A stretch of DNA of 64,000 nucleotides from Candidatus Zixiibacteriota bacterium (GCA_040752595.1 JBFMGX010000004.1:365346-429345), one strand, 5' to 3'; counted from the first letter of the stretch, positions 5,029 through 49,810 are shown. Numbers and translations: made by a program. The notes: generated by a model from the letters alone, not told the origin.

Positions 5029-6312
5029 TTAGGGGGCGGATGATCCTCGAATGTCGAGGATATGGACTGCCATCAACACGCCGGGAGGAGTAGACGCCTG
5101 CGCCTTGGTAATCCGCATGGGTGACGACCCTTGGCGAAGGAGAATGCACTCATCACGCGGATCTCGGAACACAGTACCAATCAGTGTGACACGGGACACG
5201 TGGTCGTACGTGAACACTTCGACTCTTGTGCTGTCGAGTCCGACCTTCGAAACGTGAAGTGTGTCTTGTGTGTCGTGCGCTACCCAGATTGACACGCTCG
5301 AGACGCTGGCATTTGCGTTCCCACGGATTGTGACCCGCTCAACCTGGTCCCAAACGGAGAGGACCAGTGTGTCGCTGTACGGTGGAGGGAAGGCTTCTCC
5401 TGGATCGTGGTTACCCGTGATGATGCTGACCATCGCTTCAAGGTCTGCCCGCGTCAGCAGCTCGCCATCGCCGTTGATGTCACTTGCGGCAATCTGGCGC
5501 CCACGGCGCGCGGGATCCGCATCCCAGACGCGATCTCCGTAGATGAAGTAATTCGTGAGGAGTATAGCATCTCCTATCTCTTGTGCAACACCATTGAGGT
5601 TGATGTCACCGACAAGGGTCGCCGGCGGTTGTTCAAAATGTACTGCGCCGGAAACAAACCGGAGGAGTGGTCTCAGAGTGTACCTCCGCGGACAATTCCC
5701 CGTGTCATAGGGTGCCCACAGGCCGTCGTGGCGCTCGAGTGTATCTGCCATGTAGATGATGTTGTCATCTTTGGCGTCCATGAACGTGTTGTCCAGACAA
5801 TCGCCGATCCAGAACCCGACCTCAGTCGTAGTCCCGAATCTTCCGCGATGAGCGGTGGCCACGAAGTTCAGCGTGCAAAGGGCACCGTCTGGCAGGAGTT
5901 GTGGCGGTCGTGGTGACTGTGCATTGCCCCGATCACGGAACGCCTGAATCTCAATGCAGGAGAGCGGCCGAGCGGTGCCGTTACGGATGAGGGACTTGCG
6001 GGTACGCCACGTGAAGTACTCCCATTCCGAGATTGCGGGTCCTTGGTCGGTGCCGACAAAGGACAACGCGCTGTCGTCATACGAGACGACGAAGTTGATG
6101 CTCGCGAGCGAGTCGATTCTGTCGGGAAGTGACTCGTCCCACGCTACGCGTACAGGCAGATGCACATTCATTCCCGGGAGAGTTGTGTCCGAGTCGATTG
6201 AGATGACCGCGGCATAGGGGCGTTCTTGCTCCCCCGGTCCCGTCGTACCGCTGCAACCGGCGAGCACGACGGCGACGCCCAGCAGCGCGAATCCAAAGAA
6301 GCGACCGGCCAT
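5029..6312 (-). CDS. Lipoprotein with internal dockerin-type Ca-binding repeats
   Basis: Lipobox LAGC|SG after the signal peptide. Two dockerin repeats: GDINLNGVAQEIGDAILLTNYFIY and AASDINGDGELLTRADLEAMVSII. Confidence 0.6.
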   Translation of the reverse strand: MAGRFFGFALLGVAVVLAGCSGTTGPGEQERPYAAVISIDSDTTLPGMNVHLPVRVAWDESLPDRIDSLASINFVVSYDDSALSFVGTDQGPAISEWEYFTWRTRKSLIRNGTARPLSCIEIQAFRDRGNAQSPRPPQLLPDGALCTLNFVATAHRGRFGTTTEVGFWIGDCLDNTFMDAKDDNIIYMADTLERHDGLWAPYDTGNCPRRYTLRPLLRFVSGAVHFEQPPATLVGDINLNGVAQEIGDAILLTNYFIYGDRVWDADPARRGRQIAASDINGDGELLTRADLEAMVSIITGNHDPGEAFPPPYSDTLVLSVWDQVERVTIRGNANASVSSVSIWVAHDTQDTLHVSKVGLDSTRVEVFTYDHVSRVTLIGTVFRDPRDECILLRQGSSPMRITKAQASTPPGVLMAVHILDIRGSSAP

Positions 6313-6522
6313 TGTATCTTGGGGTCTGGTTTGTGACCCCGCTCACACGCTCTGCCCAAAGACAATATAGCACTCAGGCGTGGCGCGTCAATTGGTGAAT
6401 GCGGCGCCGTGCCACGGGTCTTCAGACCCGTGGTTTCGCAATGCAGGGTGGGCTCTGCCCACCGTCTCAATAGATGTCAGGAGTGCAGTTCGGCTTCGCT
6501 CACCGCAAGCAGGGCTCCTGAC

Positions 6523-7506
6523 CTACGATTGTTGCAGCAGATCCGCCCCGACAAGCAACGCCGCCGTCAGCACGATCGGCGTCAATTCGCCATAGACGCG
6601 CATCTCGTTGAGATTGCCGATCAGGAGGATCATCAAGACGAACGGGGGGATCGCCCACAGCGATTGCCGCGTGAACGGATCGTGCAGTCGTTTCCAGCCG
6701 GCGAGGATGAGAATCCAGACAAACCCGAAGCTGCTCAGAAACAAGATCAGTCGTTGCGGTGTGGCGAGCATCTCGAGATTCGTGCGCCAGTGCGCGATGT
6801 CGGTGCCGACATGGGTGAACTCGAACGATGTGCCGGGATTGCCGGCGTAGATCGAGCCCATCACGAACTTGATCGCCAGCCAGATCGCAACCTGCGCGGC
6901 CAGATGAATGGCATACGACGCCCTGGACAGGCGGCGATGCTCCACGACCGCGAAGACGATAGCGAGGAACAACATCGTCTCCCGGTTGAAGGTCGCCAAT
7001 GCGAACACCGGGTAGTACCAGATCCACTTGCGTCGGTGCAAGAGCGCCAGACCGAGGGCGAAGAAGGCCACGGCTGCCAGGTCATAGGGGAGATAGACCG
7101 GCAGATCGCGGGCCAAGAGGTAGTTCCACGGTAGGACATAGAACAACGCGAAGGGGAAAAGCTCGACCGCGATGCCCTCAAAGTATGATTTCAGGTGTAG
7201 ACGAAAGGCATAGAACAACCCCATGAGCGCGGCAACGTCAACCACCTTGTACAGAGTTTTGATCTCGACAGGAAAGACACCGGACAGCGCGCCCACAATC
7301 CATGGGACCAGCATGCGAAACTGGAACGGCTTGTGCGCGGTCCCATCGATGAGCGCCTGCAGCGTCGCCAGCGGAAATTCCTGATTGAGCCGGTAGCGCA
7401 GGTGGACGAAGTACCAGGAGAACACCAGGGCGACAAGGAAGACCCCGACGCCGGTCCGCCAAGGCGTGGTTTGCGCTGGCGATGATCCACGTGCCACCTT
7501 GGTCAT
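6523..7506 (-). CDS. Polytopic inner-membrane protein of unknown function (about 8 predicted TM helices)
   Basis: Hydrophobic helices throughout. No family recognised. Confidence 0.5.
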   Translation of the reverse strand: MTKVARGSSPAQTTPWRTGVGVFLVALVFSWYFVHLRYRLNQEFPLATLQALIDGTAHKPFQFRMLVPWIVGALSGVFPVEIKTLYKVVDVAALMGLFYAFRLHLKSYFEGIAVELFPFALFYVLPWNYLLARDLPVYLPYDLAAVAFFALGLALLHRRKWIWYYPVFALATFNRETMLFLAIVFAVVEHRRLSRASYAIHLAAQVAIWLAIKFVMGSIYAGNPGTSFEFTHVGTDIAHWRTNLEMLATPQRLILFLSSFGFVWILILAGWKRLHDPFTRQSLWAIPPFVLMILLIGNLNEMRVYGELTPIVLTAALLVGADLLQQS

Positions 7507-7589
7507 GTATCAACGTAAGGGAATCCCAGAGCGGTTTTCAATCGACATATTGGCGGACGGAGTCATGGCTGCAATCAGGCATTATTCCC

Positions 7590-7690
7590 TCGCCCGCTCC
7601 CGCCTTTGGCGGGAGCGACCTCCCCCGGAGGGAGAGGTTATCATTCCCCCTCACCCTTCCAGGGAGAGGGTTGGGGTGAGGGTCATCTCG
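7590..7690. repeat. MITE-like element of the 'CCTCTCCCTCCGG' family
   Basis: Shares the core CCGGAGGGAGAGG and flanking GGGTGAGGG with copies at 12395-12470, 47105-47200 and 56303-56403. Confidence 0.5.
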
Positions 7691-7780
7691 CAGCCTACCC
7701 GTTGAGAATCACGAACAGACAGCGGGCGGTGCACTCGCACCGCCCGCCCCTTGACAGACCAACCTCAAGCTGCGCGGACT

Positions 7781-7876
7781 CTACCGCAGTTTCTTTTTGT
7801 GACGGTCCTTGCGCAGGCGTTTCTTCCTCTTGTGGGTTTTGATCTTCTGGCGTTTCCGTTTCTTCCCGGATGGCAT
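7781..7876 (-). CDS. 31-aa hyper-basic small protein MPSGKKRKRQKIKTHKRKKRLRKDRHKKKLR, resembling ribosomal protein bS22
   Basis: ATG sits 44 nt downstream of the HU stop, preceded by GGGAGCG. Composition and spacing resemble mycobacterial and Bacteroidetes bS22 (..KKRRKRM.KKKHRKLLRRTR..). It is far below ORF-caller length cut-offs. Confidence 0.4.
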   Translation of the reverse strand: MPSGKKRKRQKIKTHKRKKRLRKDRHKKKLR

Positions 7877-9166: not shown

Positions 9167-9193
9167 ATCAGTGTGCCCCCGACGCCCCCATGC

Positions 9194-22871: not shown

Positions 22872-23405
22872 ATGAAGACCGTACATCCTGGACGCTGGCG
22901 GGCGAAACTGGAGAAGGATCAGCCGGCGAAGATCGTCCCCGTCCCGCCGAAGTGGCAACGGCAGTATGGGCGGGGGACGATGTTGATCTCCCGCCCCATC
23001 GATGTCGATTGGCTCATCCGCAAGGTGCGCAAGGGACGGCTGACGACGCCGACCCTGATCCGGGAACGTCTGGCGCGCGACTATGGCGCCGAAAACGCCT
23101 GCCCGCTCTGCACCGGCATCTTCATCCGCATCGTCGCCGAGGCCGCCGAAGAGGATCGTCGCGCCAGGAAGGGACGCATCACACCCTACTGGCGCGTGGT
23201 GCAGTCCGATGGAAGTCTCTATACGAAGTTCCCGGGAAGCGCGGCGGCGCAAGCCAGGCATCTGCGCACCGAGGGATTCGTCATCGCCGCGGCGAAGGGC
23301 CGGAAACCGCGCTTCGACTGCGCTTGCCGTCGCAGACCGATCGTCGTCAGGATCCCGCGATCGGTCCCCCCGTGTTGGCCCAGCCGCGTTTCACCACGGC
23401 GTTGA
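22872..23405 (+). CDS. MGMT-fold DNA-binding protein of the alkyltransferase-like (Cys-less) type with N-terminal extension
   Basis: Helix-turn-helix region then ITPYWRVVQSDGSL, which aligns to the Ogt PCHRV active-site loop with Cys replaced by Tyr-Trp. Canonical Ogt (PCHRV) is encoded separately at 60906-61424. Confidence 0.5.
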   Translation: MKTVHPGRWRAKLEKDQPAKIVPVPPKWQRQYGRGTMLISRPIDVDWLIRKVRKGRLTTPTLIRERLARDYGAENACPLCTGIFIRIVAEAAEEDRRARKGRITPYWRVVQSDGSLYTKFPGSAAAQARHLRTEGFVIAAAKGRKPRFDCACRRRPIVVRIPRSVPPCWPSRVSPRR

Positions 23406-24996
23406 CCATCGGCGTTCCCGGAGGAAGCTTGGTGGGATCCAGAAGATCGGTGTCGAACTGCCAAACGCGATTCGGGGGATTGTAGTAGCCGCCGGTGCCG
23501 CCCCACTTGGCGGTTGCCTGCTCCGAATACCACATCTGCACCATCGAGCCGCTCCAAGTGAAGTTATCGCCGCTCCAGTTCTCGAGGAACCGCGGGAAGT
23601 TCTCGACCCCGCCCGAGTAGTTCCCGCCCACGCTGGCGACATTGCCGGTGATGAACGACACGTTCACCGTCGTCGGGTTCGCATTGCGATAGGTCAACGT
23701 CTTGGTGCTGTTGCTGTCCTGCCAGTTGGTCGACAGGACCGTGTAAGCGTCGGAGAAAATGGCGGCCGGCTTCTTGCTTGTGGAGTTGTAGTTCCCTTTC
23801 GTGTAGACCGGGTTCTCCGACACCACCGTAAGCCCCGACTTGAGCGACGAACCGTTGATCAGCCGGGTGGCCTTGAGGTTGCCGCCCGAGTAGGTGTCCT
23901 TCGTATAGACGATTCCGTTGCTCGGCCAATAGGCGCTGGTGTTCAGCTTGGAGATGTCGATGTCGCGGGCGTTGACCGTCTTGGCGTTGCGCCCGTCGTA
24001 GAATGACGACGTCGAAAGCACGCCGCTGGAGGTTAGATCGGCGGTCACATTGACCCACGAACCGCCGCTCTTGAAGTAGGCCTGTCCGTCAAGGATCTTC
24101 AACGTGGCCTTGTTCTCATAGGAATCCGTGTTCCCGGCCGAGGCGTCTTCGATGATGGCATGGGGGTCGTTGCTGGCCTCCAGGGGCAGGTTGAGGGACG
24201 TCATGCCGTGGTCGACATCCTGCACTTGACCGCCCCAGCGGTCCAGCGCCTTCTGCATCCACTGGCTCTCATTGTGATCCAGCCAGGTGCCGTCGGGGTT
24301 CCGCATGTCACGGTCCACCCCGTCCTTGTCCTTGATGCGCACATACCCGGTGCCGGTCGCCATTCCCGAGGCGGGATCACGACCGTGGTAGATGGACCCG
24401 GCGGCGGTCAGAAACGAGTTGATGGTCAGACCGTTGTTGGAGCCGAGATAGGTGTCGCCGTTCGAATGGACGCGCCCGGACAGGGTCATCACCGGCCCCG
24501 GGTGCCACTCCAGCACCTTGTCATAGAAGATCGCGAACTGGAAGATCGGGATCAGCGCCCGCTCCATCCGGATGCGCACCGAGTTCTGCACGCCGGAGGC
24601 GTCGGAGCGCGCGTACCCCCAGAGGTCGTAGTCTTGCACGAGGCCATACAGCCCCCGAAACGCCCCGGTCGTGAGATTCCGGGTCGTGGGCGTGCCGACG
24701 GCCAGGGTGGCGTACTGGACATGATAGCGGTCGAGAACGAACGAATCGACCGGCAGCGGGTTGGGCGGCGCGTCGGTGGAGTCGATGGCGGCGTTGAACA
24801 GGGCGTAGGCATAGTCCGCCGCCGCCTCGGCGGCGTAGAGGGCATTGACGTCCCGCAATTGGTACCCGGCCACGTCCATGTCATCGGACGACTTGTTGAC
24901 CATCGAGACGCCGAGGATGCCGAACATCAGAAGCAGCGCCATGCAGGTCAGCATCACAAACCCGCGTTGGTTGCGGAGAACAAACAGATGTTTCAT
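23347..24996 (-). CDS. pilX: Type IV pilus minor pilin/tip-associated protein with PilX_N domain (549 aa)
   Basis: N-terminus NQRGFVMLTCMALLLMFGILGVSMVNKSS matches the PilX_N signature. Long Gly/Asn/Thr-rich C-region. Last gene of the pilV-pilW-pilX operon. Confidence 0.6.
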   Translation of the reverse strand: MKHLFVLRNQRGFVMLTCMALLLMFGILGVSMVNKSSDDMDVAGYQLRDVNALYAAEAAADYAYALFNAAIDSTDAPPNPLPVDSFVLDRYHVQYATLAVGTPTTRNLTTGAFRGLYGLVQDYDLWGYARSDASGVQNSVRIRMERALIPIFQFAIFYDKVLEWHPGPVMTLSGRVHSNGDTYLGSNNGLTINSFLTAAGSIYHGRDPASGMATGTGYVRIKDKDGVDRDMRNPDGTWLDHNESQWMQKALDRWGGQVQDVDHGMTSLNLPLEASNDPHAIIEDASAGNTDSYENKATLKILDGQAYFKSGGSWVNVTADLTSSGVLSTSSFYDGRNAKTVNARDIDISKLNTSAYWPSNGIVYTKDTYSGGNLKATRLINGSSLKSGLTVVSENPVYTKGNYNSTSKKPAAIFSDAYTVLSTNWQDSNSTKTLTYRNANPTTVNVSFITGNVASVGGNYSGGVENFPRFLENWSGDNFTWSGSMVQMWYSEQATAKWGGTGGYYNPPNRVWQFDTDLLDPTKLPPGTPMVNAVVKRGWANTGGPIAGS

Positions 24997-25043
24997 CGTT
25001 CCCTCACTATCGACATGCATCCGGTACGGACATGCGATGAACC

Positions 25044-32346: not shown

Positions 32347-32529
32347 GGAATAGGGCTTTGACGTTTCTCCGCCAGAGTTCGAAACATGCAAAATACCGTC
32401 CGCCTCGGCATCCGGCAACGGAAAAACGTTCCTGGCGCGGCACCTTTGGCGCCCGGAGCGATACGGTCGTATGCAATCGGACTTGACAGATCAAGGCGGC
32501 ATCCCTATATGTGATTCGGCGTCCGGTGA

Positions 32530-32700
32530 TCTGCGGATCGACCGGGAAGGCGGTGAGAATCCGCCACAGCCCCGCTGCTGTAAGCGGCTACGACGGTGAC
32601 GCCGCGTGCGAAAGTCGCGGCTAACCACTGGGACGGTAGTCCCGGGAAGGTGTCACCCGAGGCCCGAAGCCGCAAAGTCAGAAGACCGGCACGGACGTCT
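32530..32700 (+). promoter_or_regulatory. Cobalamin (AdoCbl) riboswitch
   Basis: GGGAAGGCGGTGAGAATCCGCC...CCCGCTGCTGTAAGCGG ... CCACTGGGACGG...CCCGGGAAGGTG ... B12-box AAGTCAGAAGACCGGCA. These match the Rfam RF00174 core elements GGUG.GAAUCC / CCACUG / GGGAAGG / AGUCAGGAGACCUGCC. Confidence 0.7.
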
Positions 32701-32905
32701 GCCACAGATCTCGATTCGGCTGAAGCCGAATGAGTCCGTGGCCAGAGTTTCGATGCCTTCGCGGGAAGGATCGGGGCGGGACGTCGCATCGCGGCTGAGT
32801 CCCTGACTGTCGCCCGACCACCGCGTGGCCGGGCGATCTGCTTTGTCCGGTCCCGTTCCTTCCCCGCAGACATCGGTTCAGCACCGCTCCGAGGGAGAGC
32901 CGGCC

Positions 32906-35182
32906 ATGTCCAGTGTCTGCGAATACCTGCCGCGTTGGGGAGCGCGATCCGCCGCGGCGGACCGCCGAGCCGTCCCCGATCACTCGCCACAATCCCGGCT
33001 CAGCAGGAGCTTCGCCCTCCCTTTCAGTGACGGGATCGGGGGAAGGGTCGGTCGTCGCGCGTTCTTCCTGTTCGTCGCTTTCGTCGTTACTGCCCCTGCG
33101 ACAGCACGGGCCGAGTCGGAACGCGCCATCAGCGGCACTGTCTACGATCGTGCCTCCGGTTCTCCGCTTGAAGGTGCCGTCCTGACGGTGGATGGCACTG
33201 CCTGGGCGAGCATCACCGACGCCGGGGGTCGTTTCTCGATGCGTTCCATCCCCCCGGGAGAGTGGTCGGTCATGGTCACGCGCGTCGGGTTCCAGCCACG
33301 GCACCTGGCGTCGGTTGCAGTACGCGAAGGATTCGAGCAGACGCTGCACATCAGTTTGATTCCCGCACCGGTGGTGCTGCCGGGGCAGCAGGCGACCGGT
33401 CAGGCGCCCGATCGCTTCGCGGTGCGGCGCATCGAATTGTCATCGACACCACAGTCACCATCTCAGACGATTGAGCAGGCGCTGGCACGCGTACCGGGGG
33501 TTCGTGTCTATGGTTCGTCGGAGACACCCGGCGGGGTTCGTGTCTCTGTCGGAGGCGAGCCCGCCGAACGAGTGGCAGTGCTGTTGGATGGTGTGCCGTT
33601 GTCCGGTGGGGGAGATGGCTCAGTGGATCTGGCGGCGATCCCCCCTGCGGCGATCCGCGCCATTGAAGTCCATCCCGGGTCTCAGTCGGCGATTGCGGGC
33701 AATGCGGCGGTTGGCGGTGTCGTCAACCTGATCACGTCCACAGATGACCCTGCGGCGGCGCCTCCGACCGAGCTGCATGCCTTTGGTGGTGCATTCGATC
33801 ATTACGAAGCCGGAACGTCCCAACGGTTGCTCTTGGGAGGCGGCGAGGCGCGCTTCACCCTCGATGGGTTCCGGCATGGCCCCCGTTTCTCGTATCCCTC
33901 CGGCGACACCAACGCGATCCGTACCGGCGTCGCCAGTCACGGCCTGCGTGTGTTCACGCGCTTCGACAATCTGCCGCGCCACATCGAGGCGCTGGCATTC
34001 GTCTATCGGTCGACCAACGGCGTTCCCGGTCCTCTGGAGCAGAGGACGCCGGATGCCACCAATGACAATGACCGGTTTCGTTGCCAGGTGCGCTGGCAGG
34101 CGGAAATGCCGGAGGCAATGCAGGCGGCCGCCGCGATTTGGTACGAAAACGGCCGCGAACACTATCGTTCGCCGCAGCTCTACAAGGCCGATGCCGAGTC
34201 GAACGAGGAAACATGGGGCGGGAAGGCCGATCTCGTCCTTCATGGCCGGTCGCTGTCCGGCGGGCTCACGGTGGAAATGCGCAGCCGGCGTCTGGAAGGG
34301 ATCGATCATCTGCGTCCGGCGCAGTCGTTCGGAGTCCGACAGCGCATGGAGCATGCGGTCCGGGGACAGGTGGCGCACTCGGGAAGTCTACCTATAGGAT
34401 CAGGGACTGCTCGTGTCACTTGGGCGTGGGACATCGAGACCGGCGGGCAGAGCATCCTCTCGCCGCGCGCCGATCTGTCTTGGTCGGGCCCCGGCGCGAT
34501 CGTGTGGCACGGTGGTTGGGGACGATCATTCCGCCGCCCCGAGTTGACGTCGTTGTTCTGGAAGGCCGATGCCTACGCCGTCGGCAACCCCGACCTGCGT
34601 CCCGAGCGCGCTTCGGAATGGGACATCGCCGTTGGCTGGTTTCCGCGGCGCGTCGTGGCCGAGACACGGTACTTCGAACGCGACGTGACCGACATCATCG
34701 TCTGGGATCGCGACTTCGCCGGGCGCTACACACCCCGGAATCTGCGCGCGGCGTCTGTGGTCGGCCGGGAGGATCACATCGCGGTTGTGCCCTGCGAGCG
34801 CCTGGTCTCTCTGACGCTCGACTATACCCACGTGTTCACCGGCGCCAATGACGCCAGCGGCGAACCGAACACCGACGGGCGCACGCTGGTGTTCACGCCG
34901 CGACACATACATCAGTTTCGCCTCTCCGGGGAATGGCGACGATTCGGCGCCACCGTGCTCGGGCGGTGGGTGTCGCTGCGCTACACACGACGCGCCAACA
35001 CGAAGACGATCGCACCCTACCGTGCATTCGATGCGTCCGTGACCGTCGTCTGCCGTCGCCGGGCGCCGCGGTTGACAGTCTCGCTCAGCGGCGAGAACCT
35101 GACCAACGAGCATATCGAACTGATCGAACGCTATCCCTCGCCGGGACGGGCGCTGTCGGGAGCGATCACAGTCGGCCTATGA
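32906..35182 (+). CDS. TonB-dependent outer-membrane receptor with N-terminal carboxypeptidase-regulatory-like domain; BtuB-like by context
   Basis: Signal peptide RRAFFLFVAFVVTAPATARA. CarbopepD_reg-like ISGTVYDRASGSPLEGAVLTVDG. Plug and 22-strand barrel region. RBS GGGAGAG precedes ATG 32906. Sits immediately downstream of the B12 riboswitch. Confidence 0.8.
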   Translation: MSSVCEYLPRWGARSAAADRRAVPDHSPQSRLSRSFALPFSDGIGGRVGRRAFFLFVAFVVTAPATARAESERAISGTVYDRASGSPLEGAVLTVDGTAWASITDAGGRFSMRSIPPGEWSVMVTRVGFQPRHLASVAVREGFEQTLHISLIPAPVVLPGQQATGQAPDRFAVRRIELSSTPQSPSQTIEQALARVPGVRVYGSSETPGGVRVSVGGEPAERVAVLLDGVPLSGGGDGSVDLAAIPPAAIRAIEVHPGSQSAIAGNAAVGGVVNLITSTDDPAAAPPTELHAFGGAFDHYEAGTSQRLLLGGGEARFTLDGFRHGPRFSYPSGDTNAIRTGVASHGLRVFTRFDNLPRHIEALAFVYRSTNGVPGPLEQRTPDATNDNDRFRCQVRWQAEMPEAMQAAAAIWYENGREHYRSPQLYKADAESNEETWGGKADLVLHGRSLSGGLTVEMRSRRLEGIDHLRPAQSFGVRQRMEHAVRGQVAHSGSLPIGSGTARVTWAWDIETGGQSILSPRADLSWSGPGAIVWHGGWGRSFRRPELTSLFWKADAYAVGNPDLRPERASEWDIAVGWFPRRVVAETRYFERDVTDIIVWDRDFAGRYTPRNLRAASVVGREDHIAVVPCERLVSLTLDYTHVFTGANDASGEPNTDGRTLVFTPRHIHQFRLSGEWRRFGATVLGRWVSLRYTRRANTKTIAPYRAFDASVTVVCRRRAPRLTVSLSGENLTNEHIELIERYPSPGRALSGAITVGL

Positions 35183-35315: not shown

Positions 35316-36551
35316 ATGCAGATGACTCGGTTCCAACTCGTATGCCACGCAACGTCCATTCTGCTGCTGGCGATGGTGATTCCCGTGGGCGCAGCCGCTG
35401 CCGCAGTCGTCGACACCGACCGGCTCATCGTGATCAACGGTCTGGCGGAAACACTGACTCTGGTCGACCGTGCCGCCGGGACCGTCGTCAACGATGTGAA
35501 GCCGCTCGGATTGGCACCCAACCGTATCCGTTATGGCGGCGGCCGGCTCCTGCTGGTGAATTCGACCTCCGATGATCTGTGGGTCATCGATCCAGAGACG
35601 CTCGCCACGCTGCGCGACGTAAACTTCATCGACGGCGAGAATCCCTGGGATGTCGCCTATGTCGATGACACACTGTGCGCCGTCTCGCTGTTGATCGCCG
35701 ATAAGATCGCCTTCGTCAACCAAAGCACGGGGCAGATTCTCCGCCGTCGCGACGTCGGCAAGAGCCCGCAGGGGCTGTTGGCCGTCGGGCCACAGCTCTG
35801 GGTGGCCAACACGGGGTTCGATTTCGGCACGTATCTGTATGATCCCGGGACCGTGTCGGTGCTGAACATCGCCGATGGTGCAACCATGGCGACGATTCCG
35901 GTCGGGACCAATCCCCAGGCGCTGGCGGCGTCGCCCGATGGTACGATCCATGTCTTGTGCACGGGGAACTACTTCGACCGTTTCGGCATCGTGTACTTCC
36001 TCGACCCGGCATCAATGTCGGTCGTCGATTCACTCCTGCTGGGGGGATCGCCGGGCGATCTGGCGATTGGCTCCGACGCCATTGCCTATGTCGCCGCCGG
36101 TGGCTGGGTCGATTCCGGCGAAGTGTATCGCTATCAGGCCATCTCACACCTACTGTTGAATGGCTCCGCCAATCCGTGGCACACGGCGCGCGGTGCCATG
36201 ACAGTCTTGCCGCGCCTGGAAGGGGGAGTGCATGCCATCTGTTTCTCCGGCGACTCACTGGTGGAGCACGATCTGCATGGCGGCATCGCGCGTCGCTGGC
36301 AGGTCGGCGACGGCCCTGTTCATGCCGCCTATGTCACCAACCGCCTGCCCGGGGATTTCAATGAGGATGGCGTGCTGTCTGTGCAAGACGTCGTCGGCCT
36401 GATCGACTTTGTCTTCCGCAGCAGCTCATTTCCGCAGCGATTGGGCGCCGCGGATGTCAATGCCGACTGCCAGTACTCGATACAGGATGTCGTGCTGTTG
36501 ATCAATGTCGTCTTCCGCGGCGGCTCCGGTCTCTATTGGGGGTGTGACTGA
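35316..36551 (+). CDS. Secreted YVTN-type beta-propeller protein with C-terminal dockerin-like domain
   Basis: Signal peptide, then repeated ~40-aa YncE/YVTN blades. C-terminus DFNEDGVLSVQDVVGLIDFVF...ADVNADCQYSIQDVVLLINVVFRGGSG is a type-I dockerin duplication. Confidence 0.65.
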   Translation: MQMTRFQLVCHATSILLLAMVIPVGAAAAAVVDTDRLIVINGLAETLTLVDRAAGTVVNDVKPLGLAPNRIRYGGGRLLLVNSTSDDLWVIDPETLATLRDVNFIDGENPWDVAYVDDTLCAVSLLIADKIAFVNQSTGQILRRRDVGKSPQGLLAVGPQLWVANTGFDFGTYLYDPGTVSVLNIADGATMATIPVGTNPQALAASPDGTIHVLCTGNYFDRFGIVYFLDPASMSVVDSLLLGGSPGDLAIGSDAIAYVAAGGWVDSGEVYRYQAISHLLLNGSANPWHTARGAMTVLPRLEGGVHAICFSGDSLVEHDLHGGIARRWQVGDGPVHAAYVTNRLPGDFNEDGVLSVQDVVGLIDFVFRSSSFPQRLGAADVNADCQYSIQDVVLLINVVFRGGSGLYWGCD

Positions 36552-36970
36552 TGACGTTGGGCAACTTTCATCAGCGTCGGGCACTGGTGTGTTGGGTCGC
36601 CGTGGGCGCGGTGCTCCTGTCGGCCGGGTGCGGTCAGAATGGCAGCCGACCGCGTCCAGGGCATGGCGCGCAGGATTCTCGGGCATTGATCATCGCCTAC
36701 AGCCCGGACTCAGCCGATACGTTCGCCTGTCCCGGCCGCGATTCCATCGCGGTTCTCGATCTCCTGATGCAGATGGCCCGCTCCGACAGCACGATTGTGC
36801 GCACCAAGACATACCCATTCGGTGTCTTGGTTGACCAGATCGGGTACCGTCGCAACGGCGACGGTGGTTTCTGGCTATACAGCGTCAACGGTGCCATGAT
36901 CCCGGAGTCGGCGGACAAACATCGGATCGGTGCGGGCGACACCGTGCGGTTCTTATTCGATGAGCGATGA
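36551..36970 (+). CDS. DUF4430-family lipoprotein (transcobalamin-like B12-binding fold family)
   Basis: Lipobox LLSAGC. Motif GGFWLYSVNGAMIPESADKHRIGAGDTVRFLF fits the DUF4430 signature (W.Y.VNG...GA..Y.L..GD.I.W.Y). Start overlaps the upstream stop (ATGA). Confidence 0.65.
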   Translation: MTLGNFHQRRALVCWVAVGAVLLSAGCGQNGSRPRPGHGAQDSRALIIAYSPDSADTFACPGRDSIAVLDLLMQMARSDSTIVRTKTYPFGVLVDQIGYRRNGDGGFWLYSVNGAMIPESADKHRIGAGDTVRFLFDER

Positions 36971-38743: not shown

Positions 38744-39949
38744 CTAATGCCGAGTCTTGGGACTGGGGTAATGTCCCGAGAGAAGTCGGAAGTATAACTT
38801 GTGCAGAGTATGGATGAACTCGTACTCGCCGGACTTGTCGGTTTTCCTGATGACACCAAGCTCTTCCAACTTGCGCAACAGGTTGTCCACCCGCGTCCTG
38901 TCTTCATCAGACGCGGCTCTGAGGAGGTTCTGCCGCCGGAAAGGTCCTCCTGGGAATTCCGCGATCTTCCGAATGATCTCGCGATAGGACTTGCTACGGA
39001 TTCGCTTGACCACCTGCGGCTCGACATACTTCAGACCGACCACCTCAGCGGCCTTCCAGACCCCGGCGAAAGCGTCGTCTTCGTCGACCACCGTGTCGCG
39101 ATTGATCCAGAAGGTTGCGTCGCCAATCTCATGCATTACAGAGGGGACACCTCCGGAGAAATAGCGCAATACAGCGGATGCCTCCGGAGTCACGGTCACG
39201 TTGACCGATGCGAAGGCGCGCTCGAAAAACGAGTCAACGACAGAATCGGCGACACGCCCCAAGATGATCGGCCGGAAGATACGACCGACCGATGGCTGAT
39301 TGGTGGACAATTCCTGCATCTTCTCCTGTGTTCCGACCAGGACGATCATCAGGGGCATGGCGGGGAGGCCGCTGGTGACCATGCCATCCACCCAACCTTT
39401 TAGAAAGTTGGCGAATCCAAAGTCACGAGCAACACCATTGAGGTCGTCGAGCACGACCATTAGACCTCGAACCTCGGGTTGTAGTCTCGCGTAGGACTCG
39501 CGAATCAATTCCGGGAACGAGAGTTTCAGATCGTTGCGCAGAGTTGCGTCCGCACGAAACCTAACCTGCACACCCGTGCCCGGGAGACCCAGCGAAACCG
39601 ATTCTATGTATCTTTCGAAGACGCCTCTTGCACGCTCTGCCAGGGACTTCGGCATCTGCGCCAGGAGCTTCTGGGCAATGAGCGTGCATGCCTCGTCGGC
39701 GGACGATGCCGCCGTCAACTGGCAGTAGGCAGCGGAGAACCCAAGTTCATTCTGTGCATATCCGGTGCACAAGAGAGCGAGCGAAGATTTCCCGAACCCC
39801 CGTTCCCCACCGATGAACACGTTCTCATTGCGGCCCTGCGCAGACTGGCGCAAAAACCGGCCAATCTCGGCGATCTCCACCTCGCGACCGACGAAAAGGT
39901 CCGAGGCCACAGGCTTGCCCGGAGAAAAGGGTGACTCGACACCGGTCAT
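38744..39949 (-). CDS. AAA+ ATP-binding protein of the Arch_ATPase (PF01637) type with C-terminal DUF234-like wHTH
   Basis: FVGREVEIAEIGRFL, Walker A GGERGFGKSSLAL, Walker B LMVVLDDLN. C-terminal ...LRKLEELGVIRK... winged helix. Confidence 0.7.
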   Translation of the reverse strand: MTGVESPFSPGKPVASDLFVGREVEIAEIGRFLRQSAQGRNENVFIGGERGFGKSSLALLCTGYAQNELGFSAAYCQLTAASSADEACTLIAQKLLAQMPKSLAERARGVFERYIESVSLGLPGTGVQVRFRADATLRNDLKLSFPELIRESYARLQPEVRGLMVVLDDLNGVARDFGFANFLKGWVDGMVTSGLPAMPLMIVLVGTQEKMQELSTNQPSVGRIFRPIILGRVADSVVDSFFERAFASVNVTVTPEASAVLRYFSGGVPSVMHEIGDATFWINRDTVVDEDDAFAGVWKAAEVVGLKYVEPQVVKRIRSKSYREIIRKIAEFPGGPFRRQNLLRAASDEDRTRVDNLLRKLEELGVIRKTDKSGEYEFIHTLHKLYFRLLSGHYPSPKTRH

Positions 39950-47094: not shown

Positions 47095-47454
47095 ACTCTT
47101 CCTGAAAGGGAGCGGGGGATGATAACCTCTCCCTCCGGCTTGCCCTGAGCGAAGTCGAAGGGGAGAGATCGCTTGGACCGGAGGTCCCAGCGGGTGAGGG
47201 ACTTTTCCGTCGGTTCATACGGCGAGAAGTCCTCGGACCTTCCCAGAAGTTGAGGGTTTGCCGGAAAAAAGCAGACCCCTCGCTCCGCTCGGGGTGACAG
47301 GGTGTGTGGGATTTCTGAAGGGAGACTGTCGTTCCGAGCGAAGCGAGGAACCTGCTGTTTCATGTATAATGACCTTCCGTTTCACTCTGTTAGCTGGTCA
47401 TTGGCATGACCTGGCCATGCCGGGCCGTCACCCCCCCGGCCAATAGTACGCAAA

Positions 47455-47484
47455 CGAAACGCGCCCTGAGGCGCGTTTCGTGCG
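47455..47484 (-). terminator. Hairpin GAAACGCGCC-CTGA-GGCGCGTTTC about 30 nt downstream of the M14 peptidase stop
   Basis: Perfect 10-bp stem followed on the minus strand by GTTTGCGT. Weak U-tract. Confidence 0.4.
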
Positions 47485-47512
47485 TCTTTCTTTGGCCGGG
47501 GCCTGCGTCGGG

Positions 47513-49810
47513 TCAGGGTGCGCAGGGGTCGCAGAACTCTGTCGCCGCCGCGCTGCCGCGGAAAGCCACGTTGACCACCTTCACGACGTCCGCGATTGTC
47601 GTCACTCCGTCGCAGCTCACGTCTGTCTGCTCCCGCGGGCAATCGGGATCGACGACGGCGCTTTCGCCGCGAAAAGCGACGTTCACGGTCAGCACGACGT
47701 CCTGCAGCGTCGGTATCCCGTCACACATCGGGTCACCGTGGCATGGGCAGTCGCAGGTGACGTAGCTCACGACGACCTGGTGGAGCGGCGCCGCCATCGT
47801 CTGGCCGTCGACGTCGGTGGCACTCAGCGCATACCAGTAATCGCCCGGCGTCTTGCCCGTGACCGCTAATGTCGTTTCCGGCGTCGCGGTCGACAACGTG
47901 ATCAGGGAGTCGTAGTCCGTTTGCGGATAGAACTCATCGACATAGATGCCGTCGCCGAGCGTGTAGTCGTCGGTCTCATAGGCAATCCGGAACAGGACAT
48001 CCTGCCCGCCATAGGTGGTCAGCGGGAACTTGGCGAGTACAAAGGACCCACCGGAACTGCCGGTGATGCCGTTGCCGCGCTGCCGTTGCGGGTAGTAGGT
48101 CATCGTTGTCACGTTGCCCGGCAGCGGTGTCCAGGTCTGACCGTGGTCCGTGGAGATCTCCACGTAGGCGTAGTCAAAATCCTGTTCGATGTCGTACCAC
48201 AGCTTCATCTGGAGCGTGTCGTTGCTGATGACATGAAGATAGTCGTTGCCGGTCATGTACGAGTTGCGGCTGCTGCCGGTGCCGCCCCAGTAGCTGTATG
48301 ACCCGGATGAGGCCCATGTTGTCGAGCGCGAGAACCCGGTCAGACGCCAGTCGTTTCCTTCGGTCTCGGCGCCGTCGGTGACGCGGTGGGTGCCGAATGC
48401 CTCCTTCAGGGTGAAGCTGGCCGCCGGGTTGGCCCCTCCCGGGTCCTTCCACACCAAGGTGTAATCGGGCGCGCCCACGAGTCCGGGTGCAATCCACGAC
48501 GGCACCGCCGGCGGGAAGATGCGCTCCGGGCTGGCCGCCAGGTCGATGATAACCAGATTCGAGGTCATGTGTTCCTCGATCTGGACGGGAATGCGCGACG
48601 GATCGGGCCAGAAACCATCCTCCCCCGAGCCGATCTCGGGTGTGTAGGCGAGGATCTTGCCGTGCCCACTGGTGTCGTTGTACATCCAGTCGTCGGAGTC
48701 GCCGTTGACGATGTACAGCAGCGAACTGATCTGCGGTGTGTAGCCGTTGTAGCGCGCGACCGAGTCGCCGATGGCCGCAAACAGCGCGTGGTCCGGCGTG
48801 TAGTGTTGCAACGCGTAGCCCCAGGGCCACAGATAGAGATTCGAATAGGAATGGAAGTTGACGGCGATCACGAACTGGCGGCTGTTGACCAGCGAGGCGA
48901 TGTTCTGAGTCTCATATTCGGAAAAGGCGGAGGGGCCGCGGTACGTCTCGCTGCTCGGATTGGGCGAGGAACCGTCGTTGTCCAGCCCCCACATGTAGCC
49001 GTAGTTGCGGTTCAGATCGACACCGCCGCTGCCTCCGTATTCCAGGTTGCGGTTCTTCCGCCACATGCCGCCGCCGCCCGGGGCAATAATGCGGTTGTAC
49101 TCATACCCGTCCGGATTCATGCAGGGAACGAAGTAGATCTCGCGCTCGTTGGCCAGACGTGTTCGCAGGGTATCGGTGCCGTACCCGAGGACAAAGCGGC
49201 GCATTGTCTCCAGGCAGACCTCCATCCCGATCGGCTCGCGGGCGTGGTGCATCCCGGTGAAGAGGAGCTCCGGCTCGGCCTCGTCGACATGGGGATTGTC
49301 CGAGACCTTCATCGCCCACGTTTGCCGACCCTCGTACGAGAAGCCAATCGAGAACTTGGCCGTTGTGATCATCGCGGGATAATGGAGGACCGAATCGAGT
49401 CGGTGAATGGAGTCCATCACCGCGATCCCCTCCGCCAGCGTGCGGAATCCGCCCATCGTCACCGCCGTCTTGGCCGCGTAGGTCTGGTACCAATCCGCCA
49501 CCTCGACCTCGATCTTGTATCCGGCGCCCTCCAGCTCGGCCAACTGCTCGGGCGTGACCAGGATGCGGAAGAAGCCGTTGGCGGCATTGGGATGGTCTTC
49601 CAGGATGTCGATGTTGCGGCGGTAGGCCTCGGCGATCTGACCTTTGCCGGTGATCACCCAACGGGCAACGATCTTCTTGTTCAGAAAGGCCTCATCGGCC
49701 GCAGTCAAGCTCCATGCGCGATTGACCGTCAACAGAACGGACAGCACCAAAACAACCATGCCAAGACCCCGGATGAACTCCCGACGGCGCATCACTCCTC
49801 CTTCAAGCAA
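47513..49810 (-). CDS. M14 zinc carboxypeptidase with C-terminal Cys-rich dockerin-like module; Tat-type signal
   Basis: RREFIRGLG twin-arginine motif. M14 Zn site HAREPIG..., NPDGYEY. C-terminus ...CDGIPTLQDVVLTVNVAFRG...CDGVTTIADVVKVVNVAFRG... parallels the dockerin tail of the 35316-36551 product. Confidence 0.8.
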   Translation of the reverse strand: MLEGGVMRRREFIRGLGMVVLVLSVLLTVNRAWSLTAADEAFLNKKIVARWVITGKGQIAEAYRRNIDILEDHPNAANGFFRILVTPEQLAELEGAGYKIEVEVADWYQTYAAKTAVTMGGFRTLAEGIAVMDSIHRLDSVLHYPAMITTAKFSIGFSYEGRQTWAMKVSDNPHVDEAEPELLFTGMHHAREPIGMEVCLETMRRFVLGYGTDTLRTRLANEREIYFVPCMNPDGYEYNRIIAPGGGGMWRKNRNLEYGGSGGVDLNRNYGYMWGLDNDGSSPNPSSETYRGPSAFSEYETQNIASLVNSRQFVIAVNFHSYSNLYLWPWGYALQHYTPDHALFAAIGDSVARYNGYTPQISSLLYIVNGDSDDWMYNDTSGHGKILAYTPEIGSGEDGFWPDPSRIPVQIEEHMTSNLVIIDLAASPERIFPPAVPSWIAPGLVGAPDYTLVWKDPGGANPAASFTLKEAFGTHRVTDGAETEGNDWRLTGFSRSTTWASSGSYSYWGGTGSSRNSYMTGNDYLHVISNDTLQMKLWYDIEQDFDYAYVEISTDHGQTWTPLPGNVTTMTYYPQRQRGNGITGSSGGSFVLAKFPLTTYGGQDVLFRIAYETDDYTLGDGIYVDEFYPQTDYDSLITLSTATPETTLAVTGKTPGDYWYALSATDVDGQTMAAPLHQVVVSYVTCDCPCHGDPMCDGIPTLQDVVLTVNVAFRGESAVVDPDCPREQTDVSCDGVTTIADVVKVVNVAFRGSAAATEFCDPCAP

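What the first reader, a model, noticed from the sequence alone, without database searches (positions are those of the whole stretch)
5029..49810. Dockerin-like modules on three unrelated exported proteins with no cohesin partner in the window
A lipoprotein (5029-6312, internal tandem dockerin repeats), the B12-locus beta-propeller (35316-36551) and an M14 carboxypeptidase (47513-49810) all carry Ca-loop/helix dockerin-type repeats. The latter two share a near-identical tail (QDVVLLINVVFRGGSG vs ADVVKVVNVAFRGSAA). The peptidase version replaces the Asp ligands with Cys (CDGxxTxxDVV). This points to a cohesin/dockerin-based surface display system used for nutrient capture rather than cellulolysis.
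Basis: partly seen in the sequence, partly recalled or inferred. Interest (0 to 1): 0.5.

Follow-up and report, generated by a model that had tools for sequence, protein, structure and literature searches.

The report
Unannotated cohesin-dockerin docking system in Zixibacteria
This looks like a non-cellulolytic version of the known cohesin-dockerin tethering system, here attached to a peptidase and a vitamin-B12-capture protein.

Summary

(1) Cohesins are present. The lipoprotein's N-domain has a cohesin fold (Foldseek E 8.5e-11). A small secreted protein (50018-50563) next to the M14 gene is a divergent cohesin (hhalign 98.8% to Pfam-positive cohesins). (2) Cys sits at loop position 4, not at the Asp ligand positions. 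(3) The shared tails are 8/16 identical, not near-identical.

No T9SS C-terminal domain is present on any of the three. The Cys-rich tail is a C-terminal tag found on up to 42 loci in one genome. It sits on peptidases, cupredoxins and FG-GAP proteins, but on no glycoside hydrolase. Orthologues of the BtuG-like propeller keep both the riboswitch and the dockerin.

Verdict: a new variant of the known non-cellulosomal cohesin-dockerin kind. Actual binding and surface display are inferred, not shown.

The parts
5029..6312 (-). Lipoprotein of 427 aa (lipobox LAGC, Cys20). Order of modules: N-terminal cohesin, internal dockerin, C-terminal beta-sandwich. It has no T9SS CTD.
   Evidence: ORF. It is 100% identical to NCBI AB1792_01790. 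Most homologues end in a T9SS CTD (PF18962) where this protein stops.
5623..6219 (-). Cohesin module of the lipoprotein (aa ~32-230).
   Evidence: Pfam Cohesin scores 17.3 bits, below the 24.1 cutoff. Homologues P0003 and P0012 pass the cutoff with 35.7 and 30.6 bits in the aligned region. With the AF2 model, the top 50 Foldseek PDB hits are all cohesins: E 8.5e-11, target-normalised TM 0.76.
5413..5610 (-). Internal dockerin of the lipoprotein (aa 235-300): GDINLNGVAQEIGD...NYFIYG / SDINGDGELLTRAD...VSIITG. Each loop is one residue longer than canonical.
   Evidence: Pfam Dockerin_1 E 0.071. Family profile A6 against PDB: the top 5 hits are dockerins, best E 4.3e-4. hhalign against A5 gives 91%, E 9.5e-7.
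32507..32709 (+). Cobalamin riboswitch heading the B12 locus.
   Evidence: Rfam RF00174, 90.8 bits. Present upstream in 5 of 6 orthologous loci.
32825..35182 (+). TonB-dependent receptor (BtuB-like position).
   Evidence: Pfam Plug, TonB_dep_Rec barrel and CarboxypepD_reg domains.
35322..36551 (+). Secreted YVTN/YncE-type beta-propeller, BtuG-like, with a C-terminal dockerin. It has a signal peptide and no lipobox.
   Evidence: The NCBI start gives 409 aa. The orthologue profile (A7) hits BtuG1 8blw_B at E 4.3e-9 and 8ptf/8ptd at 2e-9. 8BLW is the BtuB1G1 complex.
36351..36548 (+). Dockerin of the propeller: GDFNEDGVLSVQDVVGLIDFVF / ADVNADCQYSIQDVVLLINVVFRGGSGLYWGCD. It has a conserved Cys pair (loop-2 position 6 and the terminal WGC).
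   Evidence: Pfam 22.3 bits. A5 profile against solved dockerins, E 1.5e-5. The tail and the Cys pair are conserved in the five orthologues with a complete C-terminus, 54-72% identical.
36551..36970 (+). DUF4430 lipoprotein (the C-terminal domain type of transcobalamins).
   Evidence: Pfam PF14478, 30.1 bits. NCBI name. DUF4430 is described as the C-terminal domain of TCN proteins in PMC4350170.
47513..49792 (-). M14 zinc carboxypeptidase with an InhA-like MAM domain and a C-terminal Cys-rich dockerin.
   Evidence: Pfam E 1.3e-60 and 4.5e-22. NCBI start at 49792.
47516..47764 (-). Cys-rich dockerin (aa 683-765) with eight conserved Cys: CxCxCHxDPxCDG...DVVxTVNVAFRG...DPxCP...TDVxCDG...DVVKVVNVAFRG...FCDPC.
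50018..50563 (-). Small secreted single-cohesin protein (181 aa, NCBI AB1792_01970), immediately upstream of the M14 gene.
   Evidence: No Pfam hit. The family profile (A3) finds 413 representatives. In these, the matched regions coincide with above-threshold Pfam Cohesin hits: P0147 187-295 against 189-299, and P0117 1687-1809 against 1677-1813. hhalign of A3 against Pfam-positive cohesins (A8) gives 98.8%, E 8.3e-17. A8 hits 22 solved cohesins. The neighbourhood is conserved in L001/L002, L003 and L019.
50622..52673 (-). Context only: TMEM260-like O-mannosyltransferase-type protein with TPR, a conserved upstream neighbour of the small cohesin.
   Evidence: Pfam PF11028 E 1e-28. Same neighbour in L001-L003.

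Best explanation
The window, from a Candidatus Zixiibacteriota MAG, encodes components of a non-cellulosomal cohesin-dockerin docking system.

Three exported proteins carry type-I-like dockerins, each a duplicated Ca-loop plus helix:
- a BtuG-like beta-propeller in a cobalamin-riboswitch operon;
- an M14 carboxypeptidase with a MAM domain;
- a lipoprotein.

Two proteins carry cohesins:
- the same lipoprotein (cohesin, then dockerin, then beta-sandwich);
- a small secreted single-cohesin protein encoded next to the M14 gene.

Proposed mechanism, which is inferred. After Sec export, the dockerin tails bind cohesin modules non-covalently and in a Ca-dependent way. This tethers enzymes and binding proteins to envelope-anchored cohesin carriers. 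Here the anchor would be the lipid of the lipoprotein. In relatives the same cohesin-dockerin proteins are anchored through a type IX secretion C-terminal domain.

For the B12 locus, the dockerin would take the place of the lipid anchor that Bacteroides BtuG uses to stay at the transporter. The helices of the propeller and peptidase dockerins share DVVxxxNVxFRG in both repeats. That suggests the two share one class of cohesin partner and are symmetric enough for a dual binding mode.

What is shown: module identities, export signals, gene context, conservation, and spread of the tag as a modular C-terminal tail. What is inferred: actual binding, which cohesin binds which dockerin, how the proteins cross the outer membrane, and surface location.
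For: Dockerin identity
- A5 profile against solved dockerins, E 1.5e-5.
- Cys-rich tail against A5, 98.7%.
- the lipoprotein's internal module.

Cohesin identity
- top 50 Foldseek hits are cohesins, E 8.5e-11.
- homologues pass the Pfam Cohesin cutoff.
- the small protein is a cohesin by transitive profile homology.

Functional linkage
- The order small cohesin then M14-dockerin is conserved in four other loci.
- A paralogous M14 (L022) fuses an A3-type cohesin-like module and the Cys-rich dockerin in one chain.
- M14 orthologues carry either the Cys-rich tail or an ordinary dockerin tail, so the two types are interchangeable.

Modular tag behaviour
- 76 loci in 7 genomes, 42 of them in one MAG.
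- The tail lies within 14 residues of the stop codon in 78 of 80 cases.
- Its carriers are diverse extracytoplasmic domains, with no glycoside hydrolase among the 25 most frequent of 32 matched families.
- My A5-based HMM finds 129 dockerin-bearing ORFs in the fetched loci, often in tandem arrays.

Selection
- The five propeller orthologues with a complete C-terminus (54-72% identity) keep the dockerin and its Cys pair, and five of the six orthologous loci keep the riboswitch.

Anchoring logic
- Relatives of the cohesin-dockerin protein end in T9SS CTDs.
- CTD genes occur in the same genomes as the dockerin tails.

Precedent
- Cloacimonadota MAGs have dockerin-bearing peptidases plus a cohesin scaffoldin with a CTD (PMC8542988).
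- BtuG works as an extracellular partner of BtuB (PMC10404256).
Against: - No binding was tested or modelled, because no multimer prediction was available.
- None of the window's dockerins or cohesins reaches Pfam's gathering score. The assignments rest on family profiles and predicted structures.
- The small cohesin has no recognisable anchor, neither lipobox nor CTD, so on its own it cannot display anything on the cell.
- The cohesin and M14 genes are about 225 nt apart, with weak promoter-like and terminator-like sites between them. In L003 a MoaC gene lies between them. The whole region is syntenic among relatives, so adjacency may reflect ancestry rather than co-function.
- Dockerin ORFs greatly outnumber confident cohesins in the fetched loci. 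Pfam did not confirm my weaker cohesin-like hits there.
- How a folded dockerin-tagged protein crosses the outer membrane of a diderm is unexplained.
- Loop 1 of the Cys-rich dockerin lacks a ligand-type residue at position 3.
Confidence: 0.6

Rival explanations
1. The dockerin-like tails are chiefly a C-terminal sorting or secretion tag, or a Ca-dependent folding and stability module. They would be recognised by an export or attachment machinery rather than by cohesins. The cohesin-like modules in the window would then be unrelated Ig-like binding domains.
For: - The tail lies at the extreme C-terminus on dozens of paralogues per genome, as sorting domains do.
- In the cohesin-dockerin family, one member (P0008) carries a dockerin tail in the position where the others carry a T9SS CTD.
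- Dockerin ORFs far outnumber confident cohesins in the DNA examined.
- The Cys-rich version has eight conserved Cys, which suggests a rigid disulfide- or metal-stabilised knob.
Against: - The module is a folded dockerin, not a signal-type tail. It has no transmembrane segment and no basic cluster.
- Cohesins of two families are encoded nearby, and one is fused to M14 plus dockerin in L022.
- T9SS CTDs occur in the same genomes on other proteins, so a separate tag already covers that sorting role.
- An excess of dockerins over cohesins is also normal in cellulosome producers (established knowledge, not tested here).
Confidence: 0.2
2. The tails are type IX secretion C-terminal domains or another known sorting domain misread as dockerins.
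For: Homologues of the lipoprotein do end in PF18962 CTDs, and the organism belongs to the FCB group, where T9SS is common.
Against: - No PF18962, CHU_C or NCBIfam sorting-domain hit on any of the three proteins, even at E up to 1.
- A CTD HMM built from the homologues finds no match in the window, yet finds 8 CTD ORFs in other loci.
- The predicted tail is two loop-helix repeats, not a beta-sandwich.
Confidence: 0.02
3. The dockerins bind something other than cohesins, for example cell-wall or LPS glycans, each other, or the TonB-dependent transporter directly. The window's cohesins would then bind only the dockerin in their own chain or family. The cohesin-dockerin lipoprotein could self-associate head-to-tail into surface chains.
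For: - Every member of the lipoprotein family carries its own highly conserved dockerin directly after the cohesin (GDINLNG invariant). That fits a cis or homotypic interaction.
- That dockerin type differs from the two tail types: it has 13-residue loops and only 91% hhalign probability to A5.
- BtuG binds BtuB directly in Bacteroides.
Against: - The small cohesin has no dockerin of its own and sits beside a dockerin-tailed enzyme.
- No evidence was obtained for a non-cohesin ligand.
Confidence: 0.15

Closest known systems
Type I cohesin-dockerin pairs of clostridial and ruminococcal cellulosomes (Pfam PF00404 / PF00963)
   Same: - The cohesin has the same beta-sandwich fold (Foldseek E 1e-10 to 5nrm_A, 1g1k_A).
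- The dockerin sits at the C-terminus of exported enzymes.
- The two repeats are near-symmetric.
   Different: - The host is a diderm of the FCB group, not a Firmicute.
- Cargo is peptidases, a B12-locus propeller, cupredoxins and FG-GAP/TSP3 proteins, with no glycoside hydrolase among the 25 most frequent of 32 matched families.
- The cohesins are single modules on a lipoprotein or on a small free protein, not multi-cohesin scaffoldins.
- All window modules score below Pfam's cutoffs.
- One dockerin type has eight conserved Cys, and another has 13-residue loops.
Non-cellulosomal cohesin/dockerin modules. Sources: Peer et al. 2009, FEMS Microbiol Lett 291:1, cited from my own knowledge and from the reference list seen. 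Also the Cloacimonadota 'cellulosome-like' complex, PMC8542988.
   Same: - Dockerins sit on peptidases and other non-cellulolytic exported proteins in uncultured FCB-group bacteria.
- Cohesin carriers have a T9SS C-terminal domain for surface attachment.
   Different: - The phylum here is Zixibacteria, for which the searchable literature holds no paper mentioning dockerins.
- The cohesins are of divergent families that Pfam misses.
- No giant multi-cohesin scaffoldin was seen.
- The window's own cohesin-dockerin protein uses a lipobox instead of a CTD.
BtuG, the surface lipoprotein partner of BtuB in Bacteroides (PDB 8BLW, 8BMX; PMC10404256, PMC6143338)
   Same: - A beta-propeller is encoded directly after a TonB-dependent receptor under a cobalamin riboswitch.
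- The orthologue profile hits BtuG1 at E 4.3e-9 and BtuG2/3 weakly.
   Different: - There is no lipobox. Instead there is a plain signal peptide and a C-terminal dockerin, conserved in orthologues.
- The best PDB match is a generic YVTN S-layer propeller, 1l0q.
- B12 binding is untested.
Type IX secretion C-terminal domain (PF18962 / TIGR04183)
   Same: It is a C-terminal tag present on many unrelated exported proteins of one genome. It occupies the same position in some homologues.
   Different: The fold differs (beta-sandwich against two loop-helix repeats). There is no HMM match. Both tags coexist in the same genomes on different proteins.

Membership tests
Dockerin (type I, PF00404) | Two tandem ~22-residue segments. 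Each has a 12-residue EF-hand-like loop (Asp/Asn at positions 1, 3, 5 and 12) followed by a helix. | tested here: met
   Read directly from the sequence.
- Propeller: both loops are canonical, except that Cys replaces Gly at position 6 of loop 2.
- M14: D1, D5 and D12 are kept in both loops; position 3 is Met in loop 1 and Ser in loop 2.
- Lipoprotein: both loops are one residue longer than canonical.
Dockerin (type I, PF00404) | Score at or above Pfam's gathering threshold (22.9 bits). | tested here: not met
   propeller 22.3 bits, lipoprotein 13.8 bits, M14 no hit. Relatives with the same tail type do pass: P0008 45.7, P0143 35.0, P0135 28.5.
Dockerin (type I, PF00404) | Significant profile similarity to experimentally solved dockerins. 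| tested here: met
   A5 profile: 32 PDB hits, essentially all dockerin modules or dockerin-bearing proteins, best E 1.5e-5. A6 profile: best hit 3ul4_B, E 4.3e-4. A2 reaches PDB dockerins only weakly (E 0.36) but matches A5 at 98.7%.
Dockerin (type I, PF00404) | Dockerin three-dimensional fold. | tested here: met
   [not shown]
Dockerin (type I, PF00404) | Ca-dependent, specific binding to a cohesin. | not testable with these tools
   No multimer prediction or experiment was available.
Cohesin (PF00963) | Nine-stranded beta-sandwich (jelly-roll) cohesin fold. | tested here: met
   Lipoprotein N-domain: the top 50 Foldseek PDB hits are all cohesins, E 8.5e-11, probability 1.00, target-normalised TM up to 0.79. 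The domain's pLDDT is about 70-90.
Cohesin (PF00963) | Score at or above Pfam's gathering threshold (24.1 bits). | tested here: not met
   Lipoprotein 17.3 bits. Small protein: no hit. Homologues pass in the aligned region: P0003 35.7, P0012 30.6, P0147 35.7, P0133 77, P0117 24.8.
Cohesin (PF00963) | Profile homology of the small secreted protein to accepted cohesins. | tested here: met
   hhalign of A3 against A8 (Pfam-positive cohesin modules): 98.8%, E 8.3e-17, 143 columns. A8 hits 22 solved cohesins, E 2.6e-8.
Caveats: three A8 members were themselves found with the A3 profile. The direct comparison of A3 with the lipoprotein family was not significant (E 0.061).
Cellulosome | Scaffoldin with several cohesins that assembles dockerin-bearing glycoside hydrolases. 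| tested here: not met
   No glycoside hydrolase family among the 25 most frequent of the 32 Pfam families matched by 51 tail-bearing proteins. The window's cohesin proteins are single-cohesin. Multi-cohesin proteins exist among distant relatives (P0133) but were not found in this genome.
Type IX secretion C-terminal domain | Match to PF18962 / TIGR04183 at the C-terminus. | tested here: not met
   No hit at E up to 1. A custom CTD HMM finds nothing in the window.
BtuG (B12-binding partner of BtuB) | Beta-propeller encoded next to a BtuB-type TonB-dependent receptor under a cobalamin riboswitch. | tested here: met
   The arrangement is conserved in orthologous loci.
BtuG (B12-binding partner of BtuB) | Sequence homology to solved BtuG proteins. 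| tested here: inconclusive
   The A7 profile hits BtuG1 8blw_B at E 4.3e-9, but over only about 160 residues. BtuG2 and BtuG3 reach only E 0.008-0.08. The best match is a generic YVTN propeller, 1l0q, at 1.5e-21.
BtuG (B12-binding partner of BtuB) | N-terminal lipid anchor (surface lipoprotein). | tested here: not met
   No Cys follows the signal peptide in the window protein or in five orthologues. A dockerin tail is present instead.
BtuG (B12-binding partner of BtuB) | High-affinity corrinoid binding. | not testable with these tools
   Needs a binding assay or a confident ligand-site comparison.

The most novel reading that the evidence does not exclude
Zixibacteria and some related FCB-group lineages run a large envelope 'docking network' that public annotation does not record. 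Dozens of exported proteins per genome would be tethered through a previously undescribed eight-cysteine dockerin subfamily, and its ordinary relatives, to divergent cohesins that Pfam cannot see. The tethered proteins include peptidases, cupredoxins, adhesin-like proteins and a BtuG-type B12 binder.

In this reading the dockerin replaces the lipid anchor of Bacteroides-type surface nutrient-capture proteins. That would be a third way of fixing proteins to a diderm surface, besides lipidation and T9SS-mediated attachment. The cohesin-dockerin lipoprotein could additionally polymerise head-to-tail.
Probability: 0.3. Interest if true: 0.65.

Novelty: new variant of a known kind. Interest (0 to 1): 0.5.

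Why it matters
- The four proteins are annotated only as 'hypothetical protein' or by their catalytic domain. The docking modules are therefore invisible to standard pipelines, even though one MAG has 42 loci with the tag.
- If binding is confirmed, it would show how an uncultured, widespread sediment and groundwater phylum organises its extracellular proteolysis and vitamin scavenging.
- It would extend cohesin-dockerin biology to diderm surfaces and to micronutrient capture.
- It would add a disulfide-rich or metal-binding dockerin scaffold and new orthogonal cohesin-dockerin pairs to the toolbox used for designer protein assemblies.
- The new family profiles (A2, A3, A5, A6) could be turned into HMMs to re-annotate FCB-group genomes.

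Tried and rejected
- Pfam and NCBIfam on the three proteins gave only sub-threshold dockerin and cohesin hits and no sorting domain.
- The Cys-rich tail profile alone reached solved dockerins only at E 0.36. The link had to be made through the A5 tail family.
- Comparing the small protein with the lipoprotein's cohesin family directly was not significant, with one sequence or with a profile (E 0.034 and 0.061). It also had no PDB sequence hit. Its cohesin identity rests on the wider search.
- P0024, a 67-aa tail-only ORF from another contig of the same MAG, could not be located.
- My broadened cohesin HMM gave split, weaker matches in several dockerin-rich loci (L028, L045, L047, L062, L063, L032). 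Pfam did not confirm them, so I do not count them as cohesins.
- The promoter/terminator scan between the cohesin and M14 genes was uninformative.
- Literature searches for Zixibacteria with dockerin, and with type IX secretion, returned nothing. Peer et al. 2009 is not held.
- The Tat-like RRREFIRGLG at the M14 N-terminus was considered and set aside, because orthologues have ordinary Sec signals.

Full report
ORIGIN AND GENE MAP

The window is 62.7% G+C. It matches a 513,807-bp contig of a Candidatus Zixiibacteriota MAG with locus tags AB1792_*. It is ordinary chromosome. It carries mutS, mutL, an M17 aminopeptidase, purF-like, succinate dehydrogenase/fumarate reductase flavoprotein, chorismate synthase, metE-like and a sensor kinase.

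CHECK OF THE OBSERVATION

All three proteins are exported:
- The 427-aa protein has a lipobox (LAGC, Cys20).
- The propeller has a signal peptide (NCBI start 35322).
- The M14 peptidase has a signal peptide (NCBI start 49792).

Pfam alone is equivocal:
- Dockerin_1 scores 22.3 bits on the propeller tail, just under the 22.9 cutoff.
- It scores 13.8 bits on the lipoprotein.
- It scores nothing on the peptidase.

I therefore built family profiles.

Profile A5 combines the propeller tail, its metagenomic orthologues and Pfam-positive tails of the same style. It hits 32 solved sequences, essentially all dockerin modules or dockerin-bearing cellulosomal/amylosomal proteins, down to E 1.5e-5 and over their full length.

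The peptidase tail has 25 close relatives. They share eight conserved cysteines: CxCxCHxDPxCDG...DVVxTVNVAFRG...DPxCP...TDVxCDG...DVVKVVNVAFRG...FCDPC. This family aligns to A5 with 98.7% probability, E 3.4e-16. Its AlphaFold model is confident (pLDDT 94). It matches only dockerins in the PDB:
- 27 of 28 Foldseek hits.

The lipoprotein's internal module (profile A6) has a type I dockerin as best solved match (3ul4_B, E 4.3e-4), with dockerins in the top five places. It aligns to A5 at 91%.

So the central observation, dockerin modules on three unrelated exported proteins, is correct and far beyond chance.

Three details are wrong:
1. The cysteines of the peptidase tail do not replace the Asp ligands. 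In both loops Asp is kept at positions 1, 5 and 12, and Cys is at position 4. A solved R. flavefaciens dockerin has the same DANCDG. Only position 3 of loop 1 has lost a ligand-type residue.
2. The 'near-identical' 16-mers share 8 of 16 residues. The motif DVVxxxNVxFRG is nevertheless shared, and in the six-frame translation it occurs only in these two ORFs.
3. It is not true that the window lacks a cohesin. This is the most important correction.

COHESINS IN THE WINDOW

First cohesin. The lipoprotein's N-terminal 200 residues gave a sub-threshold Pfam Cohesin hit (17.3 bits). Its homologues share a conserved N-domain (WEYFTYR, DCxDNT), the invariant dockerin GDINLNG...NYF, a beta-sandwich and, in most cases, a type IX secretion C-terminal domain. 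Two of them pass Pfam's Cohesin cutoff in the aligned region. The AlphaFold model has N-domain pLDDT of about 70-90. Its top 50 Foldseek PDB matches are all cohesins (E 8.5e-11). The lipoprotein is therefore a cohesin-dockerin protein. It has a lipid anchor where its relatives have a T9SS CTD.

Second cohesin. ORF 50018-50563 (181 aa, AB1792_01970) lies immediately upstream of the M14 gene. It is a secreted protein with no Pfam hit. It belongs to a conserved family (56 close hits). A profile search of 1.84 billion representatives found 413 relatives. Some are stand-alone proteins of about 190 aa. Others carry one to four copies inside large proteins. In those, the matched stretch coincides with above-threshold Pfam Cohesin hits:
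- P0147: 187-295 against Cohesin 189-299, 35.7 bits.
- P0117: 1687-1809 against 1677-1813.
- P0133: Cohesin 77 bits, three stretches.
Most of these proteins end in a T9SS CTD. The family aligns to a set of Pfam-positive cohesin modules at 98.8%, E 8.3e-17 over 143 columns. That set in turn hits 22 solved cohesins. Its direct comparison with the lipoprotein's cohesin family was not significant. The two are distinct cohesin subfamilies.

CONTEXT AND CONSERVATION

M14 neighbourhood. The order TMEM260-like glycosyltransferase, small cohesin, M14-MAM-dockerin, M1 peptidase recurs in other Zixibacteria-type loci (L001/L002 and L003). In L019 the small cohesin again lies just upstream of the M14 orthologue.

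The M14 orthologue in L003 has the Cys-rich tail. The one in L001 has an ordinary tail (GDMDGNESIDAVDVNLLIDFVF...GINVLDIVRLIDYVYRGGPAP). The two tail types are therefore interchangeable on the same enzyme.

A paralogous M14 peptidase (L022) fuses a PKD domain, an A3-type cohesin-like module and the Cys-rich dockerin in one chain.

B12 locus. A cobalamin riboswitch (90.8 bits) precedes a TonB-dependent receptor, the propeller-dockerin protein and a DUF4430 lipoprotein. DUF4430 is the C-terminal domain type of transcobalamins.

Six metagenomic orthologues of the propeller are 53-72% identical. All have a plain signal peptide without a lipobox. The five with a complete C-terminus (the sixth is cut by the contig end) keep the dockerin and a conserved Cys pair (ADVNADC...LYWGC). 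Five of the six loci keep the riboswitch.

The orthologue profile hits BtuG1 of the BtuB1G1 complex (8blw_B, E 4.3e-9) and, weakly, BtuG2 and BtuG3. Its best match is a generic YVTN propeller.

THE TAIL AS A MODULAR TAG

A scan of one genome per species with the Cys-rich tail found 76 loci in seven assemblies:
- 42 in one MAG (DATKYL01, labelled Acidobacteriota but sharing the Zixibacteria-type locus).
- 13 in a Zixibacteria MAG.
- 8 in each of two MAGs labelled Ignavibacteria.
- 5 in the remaining three assemblies.

The scan used two narrow peptide patterns, so it is a lower bound and is biased towards close relatives.

The tail lies within 14 residues of the stop codon in 78 of 80 cases.

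Fifty-one complete carriers hold these domains: FG-GAP/VCBS repeats (9), thrombospondin type 3 repeats (5), peptidases M14, M64, C1 and M28, glucose/sorbosone dehydrogenase, cupredoxins, BNR, sortilin and cadherin/Big_9 domains. No glycoside hydrolase appears among the 25 most frequent of the 32 Pfam families matched.

An HMM of A5 finds 129 dockerin-bearing ORFs in the fetched DNA, often as tandem gene arrays. T9SS CTD genes occur in the same genomes on other proteins. None occurs in the window.

MECHANISM

Shown:
- The identities of three dockerins and two cohesins.
- The export signals.
- The conserved contexts.
- Purifying conservation of the tails.
- Their behaviour as a modular C-terminal tag.
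- The coexistence of T9SS CTDs on cohesin carriers in relatives.

Inferred:
- The tails dock, Ca-dependently, onto cohesins.
- This keeps the peptidase and the B12-capture propeller at the envelope.
- The lipoprotein (or CTD-anchored relatives) is the anchor.
- In the B12 locus the dockerin substitutes for the lipid anchor of Bacteroides BtuG, which works as an extracellular partner of BtuB.

The near-identity of the helix surfaces in both repeats of the propeller and peptidase dockerins suggests a common partner class and a dual binding mode. This too is inference from established dockerin structure.

Weak points:
- The small cohesin has no anchor.
- The adjacency of the cohesin and M14 genes may be inherited synteny rather than an operon.
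- Confident cohesins are far fewer than dockerins in the DNA I could see.
- The route across the outer membrane is unknown.

COMPARISON WITH WHAT IS KNOWN

Cohesin and dockerin modules outside cellulosomes have been known since Peer et al. 2009 (cited from my own knowledge; the reference is visible). A very similar idea has been proposed for Cloacimonadota MAGs: dockerin-bearing peptidases plus a CTD-anchored cohesin scaffoldin (PMC8542988). Cellulosome-like complexes for other substrates are also described.

What differs here:
- The phylum. No paper in the searchable library mentions Zixibacteria together with dockerins.
- The cohesin and dockerin subfamilies, which Pfam and NCBI annotation miss.
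- The eight-cysteine dockerin.
- The cohesin-dockerin lipoprotein.
- A BtuG-like B12-locus protein carrying a dockerin instead of a lipid anchor.

VERDICT

I rate this a new variant of a known kind, of moderate interest (0.5). Module identities are secure, at about 0.9. The tethering function is plausible but untested, at about 0.6.

Noticed in passing
window 50622-52673 (-): A TMEM260-like O-mannosyltransferase-type membrane protein with TPR repeats sits directly upstream of the small cohesin in this window and in L001-L003. It could glycosylate exported proteins, as cellulosomal linkers are glycosylated, but nothing was tested.
   Followed up: partly
window 36351-36548 (+); L081-L085: The propeller's dockerin has a conserved Cys pair: position 6 of loop 2 (ADVNADC) and the terminal LYWGC. 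This suggests a disulfide clamping the C-terminus onto the second Ca loop.
   Followed up: partly
window 47690-47764 (-): A CxCxCH motif precedes the first loop of the Cys-rich dockerin. With the other five conserved Cys, it could form four disulfides or a metal site.
   Followed up: no
window 49759-49810 (-): The M14 N-terminus reads MRRREFIRGLG, resembling a twin-arginine motif. Orthologues in L001 and L003 have ordinary Sec signal peptides, so it is probably fortuitous.
   Followed up: partly
window 3122-4189 (+): An IS110-family transposase (DEDD_Tnp_IS110 plus Transposase_20) lies about 0.8 kb from the stop-codon end (5029) of the convergently oriented cohesin-dockerin lipoprotein gene, with efp between them.
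   Followed up: no
window 23347-25020 (-): A 557-aa protein with no Pfam match and an N-terminal hydrophobic segment of the PilX/prepilin-like kind (RGFVMLTCMALLLMFGILGVSMV). It may be a minor pilin-like protein.
   Followed up: no
window 56476-57480 (+) and 58950-60875 (+): A MetE-like cobalamin-independent methionine synthase domain protein, and a fused homocysteine S-methyltransferase plus MTHFR protein. Both lie in the same window as the B12 uptake locus.
   Followed up: no
window 38744-39949 (-): An AAA_16/STAND-like ATPase with weak BrxC/D similarity. It is isolated among housekeeping genes.
   Followed up: no
L023, L028, L034, L047, L048, L063 (genome-contig loci): Dockerin-tailed genes occur as tandem arrays of three to five consecutive genes in the DATKYL01 MAG and in the MAGs labelled Ignavibacteria. 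Several large neighbours carry HYR or TSP3 repeats.
   Followed up: partly
L067 (JBBSVW010000037.1): One Cys-rich dockerin locus is in an assembly labelled Candidatus Micrarchaeota archaeon, and 42 are in one labelled Acidobacteriota. Both are probably mis-binned or mislabelled Zixibacteria-type contigs.
   Followed up: no
window 5029-5100 (-): The last ~20 residues of the lipoprotein (LMAVHILDIRG...) align with the start of the T9SS CTD of its homologues. Only ~95 nt separate the stop codon from the convergent efp gene. This suggests the CTD was lost by truncation in this lineage.
   Followed up: partly
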